DNA from: Escherichia coli
Lineage (GTDB): Bacteria > Pseudomonadota > Gammaproteobacteria > Enterobacterales > Enterobacteriaceae
DNA: 64,000 nt
Assembly: GCF_030013595.1 (NCBI RefSeq)
Contig: NZ_CP122768.1
Direction: 5' to 3' (one strand)
The number at the start of each line of letters is the position of its first letter. Position 1 is the stretch's first letter. A program made the position numbers. Positions 1 to 3,000 of the stretch are shown one piece after another.

Positions 1-3000
1 CGGGCCATACAAAACATGGCGAACATCCATTGCCATGACGGTCAGTGCAGCAACCCACAAACTACTCCCGGCTGCCAGCATCGCGGTAATGACGAACTGG
101 CTCGCGCCTGCATAAATGATGCAGGAGAAAAAAACGCTTTCGAGAGGAGAGAATCCCAGACGGGTCGCATTCAGACCGAACGCAAAGGCCACCGGAATAT
201 AACTAATAACAATCGGTAAACTGTCTTTGCATCCTTCCATGAAGGTCGCCGAACCAGGAGCAGGCTGTGGAGTAGGGCTTTCCATAGAGTGTACGCTTAA
301 CGATTGTTAATATTATAAATAGACTGAATGAATATCTTAACCTTATCAGACTGATGGGCTTCTTAACACCCTTATAAGTGTAAAGCCACGAAAACGGTTG
401 CTGATTGCTTAATTTGCGGCTTCCTGACGATGAAAACCTCGCCACCAGACCAGTAAGTTAACCAGGGCAATCGTCGCGCCAGCCAGACAAACGCCAGCCC
501 AACCGCCATGTTGCCAGGCTGAGGCTGAAATTAGCGAACCGGCGGCACCGCCAATAAAGTAGCTGGTCATGTAACCTGCGGTCAGGCGATTACGCGCATC
601 AGGATGTATTCGATAAATTACCGTCTGGTTAGTGATATGCACGCCCTGCACGGTGAGGTCCAGCACCAGGATGCCGATAATCAGCGCCAGTACGGAGGTG
701 TGACCAAACCAGATTGCCAGCCATGAAAGTAACAGCAGAAGCAGACCGAAAGTTGTTGTGTGGTGCGATTTGCCCTTGTCGGCAAAACCGCCCGCCGGAC
801 GAGCGCCCAACGCTCCGGCAGCTCCCGCAAGTCCAAACAGACCAATTACACCATCGCTGTAGTTAAAAGGTGGAGCGGCAAGCAAAAAGGCCATTGAGGT
901 CCAGAGAATGCTGAAGTTGGCAAAGGTCAGGCAGCCCAGCAACGCGCGGGTGCGCAGAATTTTATCGCTGATAAACATGCTGAAAACGGAACCAAGCAAC
1001 TGTGGGTAGTTGAGGTGGGTTTCTGATTTCATTTGTGGCAGACCACGCCATAATGCCAGCGCCATCAGTGCCATTAACACCGAGGCAACCCAAAAGACGG
1101 TGCGCCAGCCGCCGAGGTTTGCCAGCAACCCGGCAACGGTTCGTGCCAGCAAGATCCCCAACAGCAGCCCGCTCATAATGGTGCCGACCACTTTGCCGCG
1201 TTTGTCTGGTGAAGCCAGCGTCGCTGCCAGCGGAACCAGAATTTGTGCCACGACCGAGAATAAACCGGTCAATGCCGTACCGAGGATCATCATCGCCAGT
1301 GACTGACTGCTGGCAGTGATTAACATACCGCCCGCTGCCAGTAAGGTCATCGAGACAATCAGGCGGCGGCGTTCAAACATATCACCGAGGGGAACAAGAA
1401 ACAGCAGACCTGCGGCATAGCCCAACTGCGCGGCGGTAACAATAAAGCCCGCCGAACTGGCGGAAAGGGAAAAGTTACGCGCGATGGTGTCGAGTAATGG
1501 CTGGGCGTAATAGTTACTGGCTACCGCCAGACCGGTGGCGATAGACATCAGCACGATCAGCGCCGGGCTAAGCTCATGGTTTGTTTTAGTCATTATTTTT
1601 GTTCATCAGGTGATGATTAAGCTGGGAATCAATAATAGCGGATGTTTATGAATGTGGGGCGAAAGATAGATTGTTAAAATGTGCGGGTAATGGGGAGAGG
1701 GTATTTGAAGGTGAAATATGCCACTAAGGCAAATGTTACGTTCACTTCCAGATTATAGCTACTTTGTCACTATTTTGCTGGTGAACGTGCCAGGGTGGCT
1801 CAGTCGCCACCACCCTGGCGACCCAGGCTTTTGGCACAAAATCGCCGCTACGCGGTACATTCGACTTATTTCTTACGGCTATCGGGTACGGGCGCGAGGT
1901 AACATCCCTGTAAGACGCGCCCTCGCCGCGCATCCCTGCGCGTCGCCCCGGCCTTCAGAAAACGTCTCATCGATTTTCAGCCGGATTAAAACCATCGCTG
2001 CAATTGTTTTACTCACATGAGCATTATCTGCGCGGTTATCAATATTTACTTCTGCGCTGCCAGCGCCTCATTCACCCAGCCATCGAACTGCTGCTGGTGG
2101 GCTTTGATCCAGCCATCAACGTGGCCCTGAATATCGCCTTCTGAGGCTTTGCCGTCATGCATAATGGCGTTCTGGGCGTTAATATCTGCCACTGGTAACT
2201 GCATAATGGCAAACAGTTTCGCTGCTGCCGGGTTTTTCTCGGCCCAGGCTTTGTTGGCAACGATATGCATGGTACTGACCGGGAAGCCGTAATTCGCGCC
2301 ATTCGGCAGTTTGGTATCGGCATTTTTATCGCCCGGCAGTGCGGAGAACGGCACCTGCAACCAGACCACATCTTTCCCCGGTTTCAGTTCGTTACTCACC
2401 CAGTACGGCGTCCAGGTGTAGTAAAACACCGGCTTACCCTCTTTGTAACGACTGATGGTGTCAGCCATCATCGCTGCGTAGTTCCCCTGATTATGCGTCA
2501 CGGTATTGGTCAGTCCATACGCGGCAAGCTGGTGGTTGATCGCACCTTCGCAGCCCCAGCCAGGGTTACAGCCGGTTAAATCCGCTTTACCGTCGCCGTT
2601 GGTATCGAACAGTTTGGCGATCTTCGGATCTTTCAGTTGCGCGATGTTGGTGATTTTGTACTGGTCGGCAGTTTTCTTATCGATCAGGTAACCCTGTGCC
2701 GCGCCGTTAACAAATACTCCTTCACGATAAAATTTCTTATCGCCACCGGCAGCTTCGTACATGTTGTCATGCAGTGGCGTCCAGTTCACTGCGGTGAAGG
2801 TTGCATCGCCGGAAGCAAGCGAGGTGTAGCCAACGTTGTAATCCACTTCGCTGGGTTTATTGACGGTATAACCTAATTTCTCCAGCGCGCGGCTGACCAG
2901 CAGCGTCTGGAAAGTTTCTTCGGTGATGGTGCTCTGAACCGGATTAACAGTAATGCCTTTGCCCGGCAGGTCGGCAGCAAAAGTTTGTGTAGAGATAAGC

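What the first reader, a model, noticed from the sequence alone, without database searches (positions are those of the whole stretch)
409..1593. MFS transporter ygaY appears intact
A single 394-aa ORF spans the locus that I recall as a split pseudogene in K-12, suggesting this strain retains the ancestral functional transporter.
Basis: established knowledge. Interest (0 to 1): 0.2.

Follow-up and report, generated by a model that had tools for sequence, protein, structure and literature searches.

The report
Intact ygaY transporter, broken in K-12

Summary
Confirmed and ordinary. Window 409-1593 (minus strand) is one 394-aa ATG-to-stop ORF, a Major Facilitator Superfamily protein (Pfam MFS_1, E 2.6e-41). 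It lies between proX and ygaZ, the ygaY position. In K-12 MG1655 the same locus is 1178 bp and RefSeq marks it 'frameshifted'. The only lesion is a 7-bp deletion in codon 88, which leaves 88-aa and 305-aa ORFs. Close K-12 relatives (E. coli C, NCTC9087) carry a perfect tandem repeat GCGGCAT-GCGGCAT there, and K-12 lost one unit. With the 7 bp restored, K-12 is identical in nucleotides to NCTC9087, so the lesion is recent. Among 5426 complete E. coli genomes, 353 carry the K-12 junction (all 19 sampled have K-12-sized chromosomes) and 5047 are undeleted at that site. Intact 394-aa orthologues in the same gene order occur in E. fergusonii and Citrobacter. dN/dS is 0.01-0.06, so the gene is ancestral and under purifying selection. 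The AlphaFold model (pLDDT 95) has 12 helices and is closest to the DHA1 exporters SotB, MdfA and NorA. TCDB files YgaY in the YnfM family, substrate unknown. Noticed in passing: a structured, TwoAYGGAY-like repeat of about 270 nt with CsrA-type hairpin loops lies just upstream (1730-2001).

The parts
409..1593 (-). ygaY coding sequence, intact. It encodes a 394-aa, 12-helix MFS transporter (TCDB YnfM family 2.A.1.36).
   Evidence: ORF; Pfam MFS_1 E 2.6e-41; RefSeq CDS at the same coordinates in an identical locus; AlphaFold2 pLDDT 95.1, pTM 0.93; TCDB assignment of K-12 YgaY quoted in PMC5417439.
1325..1338 (-). Site of the K-12 lesion. Here it reads GCAGCGG-GCGGTAT (codons A86 A87 G88 G89), an imperfect version of the 7-bp tandem repeat. 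K-12 lost one unit of the perfect form.
   Evidence: Alignments; allele listing; coordinates. The site lies inside predicted helix 75-94, TM3.
1594..1700 (-). Upstream region next to ygaY, conserved with K-12, O157:H7 and APEC O1. It presumably holds the 5'UTR and the gene's own promoter.
   Evidence: Alignment. No strong sigma-70 consensus match was found here, so the promoter is inferred, not shown.
1730..2001 (-). Adjacent feature, not part of the gene: a structured dispersed repeat of about 270 nt (TwoAYGGAY-like) that replaces K-12's REP-type sequence in the proX-ygaY spacer.
2046..3038 (-). proX, the upstream synteny anchor (last gene of proVWX).
   Evidence: RefSeq annotation of the identical locus.
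1..285 (-). ygaZ 5' part, cut by the window end; the downstream synteny anchor. A promoter-like site lies at 340-312.
   Evidence: Annotation; promoter-like TTAAGA-17-TATAAT, 10 of 12.

Best explanation
The ORF is the wild-type allele of ygaY, a core Escherichia/Citrobacter gene. It encodes a 12-helix MFS secondary transporter of the YnfM family (TC 2.A.1.36). Shown: it is intact here and in about 93% of complete E. coli genomes at the K-12 lesion site. Shown: K-12's pseudogene arose recently by loss of one unit of a perfect 7-bp tandem repeat (GCGGCAT x2). That repeat exists only in a subgroup of K-12's relatives, where a Gly88-to-Cys codon change (GGC to TGC) made it perfect. Slipped-strand mispairing is the inferred mechanism of the loss. 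The frameshift falls in TM3, so K-12 cannot make the 12-helix protein. Inferred: the intact protein works by alternating access, is proton-coupled, and is most likely an exporter of a small metabolite or toxic compound. This rests on its nearest structures being the DHA1 exporters SotB, MdfA and NorA, and on a nearly invariant membrane-embedded Asp312/Gln316 pair on the predicted tenth transmembrane helix. I recall NorA's proton-coupling Asp307 as lying on the equivalent helix; that parallel is from memory and no residue-level alignment was made. The substrate is unknown.
For: ORF and family. K-12 comparison: annotation 'frameshifted', single 7-bp gap, 88-aa and 305-aa ORFs. Repeat mechanism: E. 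coli C and NCTC9087 read GCGGCATGCGGCATG where K-12 reads GCGGCATG. K-12 with the 7 bp restored differs by 0 nt from NCTC9087 and by 1 nt from E. coli C. Census: the locus is in 5418 of 5426 genomes. The K-12 junction is in 353 genomes, and all 19 sampled have chromosomes of 4.58-4.70 Mb, many named as K-12 derivatives. Undeleted alleles: 2594 plus 2453. Intact by annotation in O157:H7, APEC O1, O111:H11, E. coli C, NCTC9087 and PSS-10. Outgroups: 93-98% identical 394-aa proteins in Citrobacter, E. albertii, E. marmotae and E. fergusonii; identical gene order in Citrobacter and E. fergusonii. Selection: dN/dS 0.011-0.055 in every pair with dS above 0.09, including dS about 1.1-1.2 against Citrobacter. 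Fold: pLDDT 95.1, 12 transmembrane helices; Foldseek top hits SotB, MdfA and NorA with TM-score 0.80-0.84. Family: 26% identity over the full length to K-12 YnfM, E 2e-20; TCDB 2.A.1.36.3. Conserved G70, D71, R151, D272, D312 and Q316. Literature treats K-12 ygaY as a pseudogene, a neutral integration site and a control deletion.
Against: No experiment shows transport, expression or a phenotype for the intact protein, and TCDB lists the function as unknown. No good sigma-70 consensus promoter was found upstream, and H-NS binds the ygaY region in K-12, so expression may be low or conditional. The classical antiporter motif C (G-P in TM5) is not evident in the sequence, and no NCBIfam equivalog threshold is reached, so the direction of transport is uncertain. 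The census covers only the K-12 lesion site; small inactivating mutations elsewhere in other genomes were not counted. One sampled genome has a larger deletion.
Confidence: 0.9

Rival explanations
1. The ORF is intact but effectively silent. It would be cryptic or H-NS-repressed DNA whose reading frame persists without current function, the region serving mainly as an architectural anchor for proVWX regulation.
For: H-NS binding and an H-NS bridge between the proVWX downstream element and ygaY are reported in K-12. No strong promoter consensus lies upstream. K-12 thrives without the gene, and the Keio ygaY deletion is used as a neutral control.
Against: dN/dS is 0.01-0.06 across E. coli, E. 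fergusonii and Citrobacter at dS up to about 1.2. This is not compatible with a frame kept by chance. About 93% of genomes are undeleted at the lesion site. ygaY transcripts are detectable even in K-12.
Confidence: 0.07
2. The protein is functional but is an importer (solute:H+ symporter), not an exporter.
For: The best NCBIfam partial hit is the aromatic acid/H+ symport subfamily, and sugar-transporter models also hit. The top sequence match in the PDB is the glucose symporter GlcP, N-terminal half only. Motif C is not evident.
Against: Full-length structural neighbours are exporters: SotB, MdfA and NorA. Full-length sequence matches are SotB-type sugar efflux, Cmx/CmrA and Bcr/CflA efflux models. 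The family (YnfM, TC 2.A.1.36) is grouped with efflux systems in PMC5417439. The neighbours ygaZH and emrAB are exporters, which is weak evidence by association.
Confidence: 0.3
3. The K-12 state is ancestral or an assembly artefact, and the window's single ORF results from a secondary repair or a sequencing error.
For: None found.
Against: 353 independent assemblies share the K-12 junction, while 5047 genomes and the outgroup genera have the undeleted 394-aa form. The window locus is 100% identical to an independent RefSeq genome.
Confidence: 0.01

Closest known systems
E. coli K-12 ygaY (pseudogene; UniProt P76628; TCDB 2.A.1.36.3)
   Same: Same locus between proX and ygaZ. The reconstructed K-12 protein differs from the window protein at 2 of 394 residues. 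Same family assignment.
   Different: K-12 lacks 7 bp in codon 88, which splits the gene into 88-aa and 305-aa ORFs. The window allele is uninterrupted, and its sequence at that site (GCAGCGGGCGGTAT) is not a perfect tandem repeat.
YnfM of E. coli (type member of TC 2.A.1.36, the 'acriflavin-sensitivity' family)
   Same: Homologous over the full length (residues 28-390, 26% identity, E 2e-20). Both are 12-TM MFS proteins with motif A after TM2.
   Different: A distant paralogue at another locus, next to the LysR-type regulator ynfL. No regulator lies beside ygaY. Substrates of neither were tested here.
DHA1 drug/metabolite:H+ antiporters SotB, MdfA and NorA (solved structures)
   Same: Closest folds: TM-score 0.80-0.84 over about 380-394 aligned columns. 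Both have 12 helices in two six-helix bundles.
   Different: Only 15-17% identity. No DHA1-type NCBIfam threshold is reached. The G-P antiporter motif in TM5 is not evident. MdfA's TM1 acidic pair (recalled from the literature) has no conserved counterpart in this family, since D35 is not among the conserved columns.

Membership tests
Major Facilitator Superfamily (Pfam MFS_1, PF07690) | Sequence match above the curated Pfam threshold | tested here: met
   142.2 bits against a cut-off of 33.4, E 2.6e-41.
Major Facilitator Superfamily (Pfam MFS_1, PF07690) | Twelve transmembrane helices arranged as two six-helix bundles | tested here: met
   AlphaFold2 model with pLDDT 95.1 and pTM 0.93 shows helices covering residues 10-393 with a linker helix at 196-209. 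It superposes on solved MFS transporters at TM-score 0.80-0.84.
Major Facilitator Superfamily (Pfam MFS_1, PF07690) | Motif A (G-x-x-x-D-x-x-x-R/K-R/K) in the TM2-TM3 loop | tested here: met
   G70-D71-M-F-E-R75-R76-R77 read from the sequence. G70 and D71 are at least 90% conserved in 90 homologues. A second copy, G268-x3-D272-K, follows TM8.
ygaY orthologue group (Escherichia/Citrobacter) | Position between proX and ygaZ, with high identity to the K-12 reading frames | tested here: met
   Synteny. 98% column identity to the K-12 locus. 2 amino-acid differences from the restored K-12 protein.
YnfM family, TC 2.A.1.36 | Full-length homology to YnfM and TCDB assignment | tested here: met
   BLASTP against K-12 YnfM gives E 2e-20 and 26% identity over residues 28-390. 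TCDB lists P76628 YgaY as 2.A.1.36.3, as quoted in PMC5417439. No family-specific HMM was available to score.
DHA1 drug:H+ antiporter family (TC 2.A.1.2) | Match to a family-level model at its curated threshold (for example Bcr/CflA, EmrD) | tested here: not met
   Bcr/CflA 50 bits against 200.9; EmrD 37.5 against 479; Cmx/CmrA 52.5 against 400.
DHA1 drug:H+ antiporter family (TC 2.A.1.2) | Antiporter motif C (G-x8-G-x3-G-P-x2-G-G) in TM5 | tested here: inconclusive
   TM5 is glycine-rich (G137, G142, G146 and G155 nearly invariant), but no G-P pair appears in the sequence. The motif definition is recalled from the literature.
Functional transporter (any) | Demonstrated transport, or a phenotype on deletion or overexpression | not testable with these tools
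   No experimental report was found. The literature uses K-12 ygaY only as a pseudogene site.
TwoAYGGAY RNA (Rfam RF01731), for the adjacent element only | Score at or above Rfam's gathering threshold | tested here: not met
   28.2 bits (window) and 31.5 bits (a copy in strain p11B) against a gathering score of 43.
TwoAYGGAY RNA (Rfam RF01731), for the adjacent element only | Two adjacent hairpins with AYGGAY terminal loops enclosed by outer helices, supported by covariation | tested here: inconclusive
   The architecture is the same in the cmscan alignment. Loops are AGGGAU twice in the window, and AUGGAU plus AGGGAU in other copies. The hairpins and outer helices covary: 19 of 70 pairs. The outer stems differ from the Rfam model.

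The most novel reading that the evidence does not exclude
The most novel reading left open concerns regulation, not the coding state. In about 10% of E. coli genomes, this one included, the proX-ygaY spacer carries a covarying structured RNA element of about 270 nt. It resembles the orphan TwoAYGGAY motif, and its two hairpin loops look like high-affinity CsrA sites. If it is transcribed with proX or ygaY, it could place ygaY (or local CsrA availability) under Csr control. Because related copies are in nearly every E. coli genome (median 3), among them one of K-12 size with 3 matches, the orphan RNA class would become testable in a model organism. Separately, intact YgaY may confer an efflux phenotype that K-12-based studies have missed.
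Probability: 0.15. Interest if true: 0.45.

Novelty: already known. Interest (0 to 1): 0.1.

Why it matters
It matters little beyond bookkeeping. It confirms that ygaY is a conserved, selected core gene of Escherichia, and that its pseudogene status is a recent private lesion of the K-12 lineage. This is one more reminder that K-12 is not a complete reference for the species. Studies that use ygaY as a 'neutral' integration site apply only to K-12 derivatives. The substrate of this transporter family remains unknown. Repairing 7 bp in K-12 would be a clean way to study it.

Tried and rejected
1. Junction 44-mer census. The first query unexpectedly gave 789 partial matches (positions 1-31). I first suspected a second deleted class. 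Fetching E. coli C and NCTC9087 showed an intact allele with a perfect 7-bp tandem repeat. A third query then classified the remaining genomes.

2. The 100%-identical strain HCP5S3_I2 was tried as a proxy annotation for the whole window. It matches only the first ~24 kb and diverges after that, with an IS3 insertion and a different island and prophage content, so it was used only for the left part.

3. NCBIfam and PDB sequence searches gave no equivalog-level match and no substrate assignment.

4. The promoter and terminator scan found nothing above the shuffle expectation near ygaY.

5. The literature search for an E. coli repeat family (RSA, Box C, IRU) matching the upstream element returned nothing. 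The search for CsrA together with the neighbouring genes also returned nothing. I could not establish whether the element equals a repeat family named in the older literature.

6. The genome contigs pattern scan for the element was too permissive. The covariance model kept only the E. albertii and Enterobacter loci.

7. Crude hydropathy segmentation merged helices and was replaced by the structure model.

Full report
**Observation**

Window 409..1593 holds a single 394-aa ORF on the minus strand, ATG to stop.
- It matches Pfam MFS_1 at E 2.6e-41. In NCBIfam it gives only sub-threshold hits to many MFS models, so no equivalog name applies.
- Downstream lies ygaZ, cut by the window start. Upstream lie proX, proW and proV, then nrdFEIH.
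- A RefSeq genome that is 100% identical over this locus annotates the same coordinates as 'MFS transporter' WP_000169332.1.

**Comparison with K-12**

- In MG1655 (NZ_CP032679.1) the CDS between proX and ygaZ is 1178 bp and flagged 'frameshifted', a pseudogene.
- Pairwise alignment shows one 7-bp gap and otherwise only substitutions. K-12 therefore reads as an 88-aa ORF ending ...MTLLAAC* and a 305-aa ORF starting MLITASS.
- The literature treats K-12 ygaY as cryptic or a pseudogene. It is used as a neutral integration site and as a control deletion.

**How the K-12 lesion arose**

- A 44-mer spanning the K-12 junction matched in full in 353 of 5426 complete genomes. It matched over positions 1-31 only in another 789.
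- Two of the 789 were fetched, E. coli C and NCTC9087. Both have an intact 1185-bp gene reading CTG GCG GCA TGC GGC ATG, which is a perfect tandem GCGGCAT-GCGGCAT. K-12 has one unit.
- Other lineages read GGC (Gly) instead of TGC (Cys) at codon 88, so their repeat is imperfect. The window reads GCAGCGG-GCGGTAT at 1325-1338.
- With the 7 bp restored, K-12 is identical in nucleotides to NCTC9087 and one base from E. coli C. The lesion is therefore recent.
- Replication slippage on the perfect repeat is the inferred mechanism.

**Census at the lesion site**

| Class | Genomes |
|---|---|
| Locus present | 5418 of 5426 |
| One alignment covering at least 80% of the query | 5413 |
| K-12 junction (7 bp deleted) | 353 |
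| Window-type undeleted allele | 2594 |
| GGCGGCA(G/T)GCGGCATG undeleted alleles | 2453 |
| Classified in total (5047 undeleted + 353 deleted) | 5400 of 5418 |

- Because 5413 genomes align in one place, large insertions in the locus are rare.
- All 19 evenly sampled records with the K-12 junction have chromosomes of 4.58-4.70 Mb, and many are named K-12 derivatives.
- RefSeq annotates the gene as intact in O157:H7, APEC O1, O111:H11, E. coli C and NCTC9087. It is also intact in PSS-10, at 393 aa with an in-frame loss of 3 bp.
- One outlier, strain PCP06021, has a deletion that removes the 3' part of ygaY together with ygaZ.
- Small lesions elsewhere in the gene in other genomes were not counted.

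**Ancestry and selection**

- Proteins of 394 aa occur in Shigella, E. fergusonii (97-98% identity), E. marmotae (98%), E. albertii (96%) and Citrobacter (93%).
- In Citrobacter and E. fergusonii the gene order nrdEF-proVWX-MFS-ygaZ-ygaH-emrR-emrAB is the same.
- Nei-Gojobori dN/dS is 0.011-0.055 for every pair with dS above 0.09. This includes dS of about 1.1-1.2 against Citrobacter.
- The intact state is therefore ancestral and under strong purifying selection. That is the basis for calling it functional; function is inferred, not demonstrated.

**What the protein is**

- A profile-free scan of 1.84 billion cluster representatives found 1142 clusters at E 1e-30 or better.
- In an alignment of 90 homologues at 35-56% identity, these residues are nearly invariant: Y28, Q31, P32, G70, D71, R151, D272, D312, Q316 and R336.
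- AlphaFold2 on that alignment gave pLDDT 95.1 and pTM 0.93, with twelve transmembrane helices and a linker helix at 196-209.
- The K-12 frameshift falls in helix 75-94 (TM3).
- Foldseek against the PDB ranks the DHA1 exporters first: SotB, MdfA and NorA at TM-score 0.80-0.84 and 15-17% identity.
- TCDB places K-12 YgaY (P76628) at 2.A.1.36.3 in the YnfM family, function unknown (PMC5417439). BLASTP against K-12 YnfM gives 26% identity over the full length, E 2e-20.
- My reading is a proton-coupled, alternating-access MFS carrier, most likely an exporter, with D312 as a candidate coupling residue. The direction of transport and the substrate are inferences. Motif C is not evident and no curated family threshold is met.

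**Expression**

- No convincing sigma-70 consensus lies upstream.
- In K-12, ygaY transcripts are detectable and rise with read-through from proVWX after osmotic shock. An H-NS bridge links the proVWX regulatory element to ygaY.
- A promoter-like site at 340-312 probably serves ygaZ.

**Verdict on the finding**

The finding is ordinary and already known: public annotation lists the intact protein in thousands of genomes, and K-12 is the exception.

**Adjacent feature found on the way**

*Location and spread*
- The proX-ygaY spacer is 452 bp here against 191 bp in K-12, O157:H7 and APEC O1. K-12's REP-type sequence is replaced by unrelated DNA. 543 genomes carry the long form.
- Its core is window 1730-2001, minus strand. 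It belongs to a dispersed family found in 5425 of 5426 E. coli genomes, median 3 places per genome and up to 10.
- Other copies lie in the yegH-asmA, dusC-yohP, lysO-aqpZ and alx-sstT spacers.

*Structure*
- RNAalifold on eight copies predicts 70 pairs, 19 of them with compensatory changes.
- 97.7% of cells pair, against about 40% when the partners are slid, and 19 pairs covary against 1-2 in the slid controls.
- G-U pairs place the RNA on the minus strand, the same strand as proX and ygaY.
- A covariance model built from these copies also finds the element in E. albertii and at five or more sites in an Enterobacter MAG. It finds none in the K-12, Citrobacter or E. fergusonii proX-ygaY spacers. 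The structure holds on that set too, although that alignment was fitted to the model.

*Family and possible role*
- Rfam's TwoAYGGAY model aligns with the same architecture but below its threshold, 28-31 bits against 43.
- One hairpin, CUUACAGGGAUGUUAC at 1899-1914, matches the SELEX CsrA consensus RUACARGGAUGU at 11 of 12 positions (consensus from PMC2896534).
- TwoAYGGAY has been proposed as a CsrA binder (PMC4333381).
- I did not establish transcription or binding, or whether this element equals an older named E. coli repeat.

Noticed in passing
window 1730-2001 (minus strand), in the proX-ygaY spacer 1594-2045: A structured dispersed repeat of about 270 nt replaces K-12's REP-type sequence. 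543 of 5426 genomes carry this long spacer. Related copies occur in nearly all E. coli (median 3 per genome) at yegH-asmA, dusC-yohP, lysO-aqpZ and alx-sstT, and also in E. albertii and Enterobacter. 19 of 70 predicted pairs show compensatory changes. It hits TwoAYGGAY (RF01731) below threshold. Its two hairpin loops resemble the CsrA consensus, 11 of 12 for CUUACAGGGAUGUUAC.
   Followed up: partly
window 21524-23776 (minus strand): An uninterrupted 750-aa ORF of the alpha-amylase family (Alpha-amylase_C E 4e-6; the catalytic domain is weak). In the near-identical strain HCP5S3_I2 the same coordinates are annotated as a pseudogene with an internal stop. From memory this is the ygaQ position, also a pseudogene in K-12. 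It may be a second 'intact here, broken elsewhere' gene.
   Followed up: partly
window 24336-24411 (+) and about 25100-33700: A tRNA with anticodon CAT, annotated tRNA-Ile in the related genome (the ileY type). It is followed by ypjCB-like (DUF5507/DUF5508) and ypjA/EhaD-like autotransporter ORFs and by a tyrosine integrase at 32387-33649 (minus). This is a variable island whose content differs between the closest genomes.
   Followed up: partly
window about 33700-64000: A prophage-like region. It holds isrK (40091-40167) and C4 antisense RNA (40192-40279), the ALIL pseudoknot of an IS3-family element (42780-42896, minus), tRNA-Gly(TCC) at 49443-49517 beside a weaker tRNA-like Rfam hit at 49364-49436 that ARAGORN did not call, and a large terminase at 53146-54903.
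   Followed up: no
window 409-1593 compared with other E. coli: Synonymous divergence of ygaY between E. coli lineages is 0.09-0.15. Only 136 of 5418 genomes are at least 99% identical to the window over this locus. The window strain therefore carries an uncommon allele here, possibly reflecting recombination next to the variable spacer.
   Followed up: no
L005 (strain PCP06021), the locus equivalent to window 1-1593: One genome has a deletion that joins the first 159 bp of ygaY to ygaH and removes ygaZ. It is an independent loss of ygaY, unlike the K-12 lesion.
   Followed up: no
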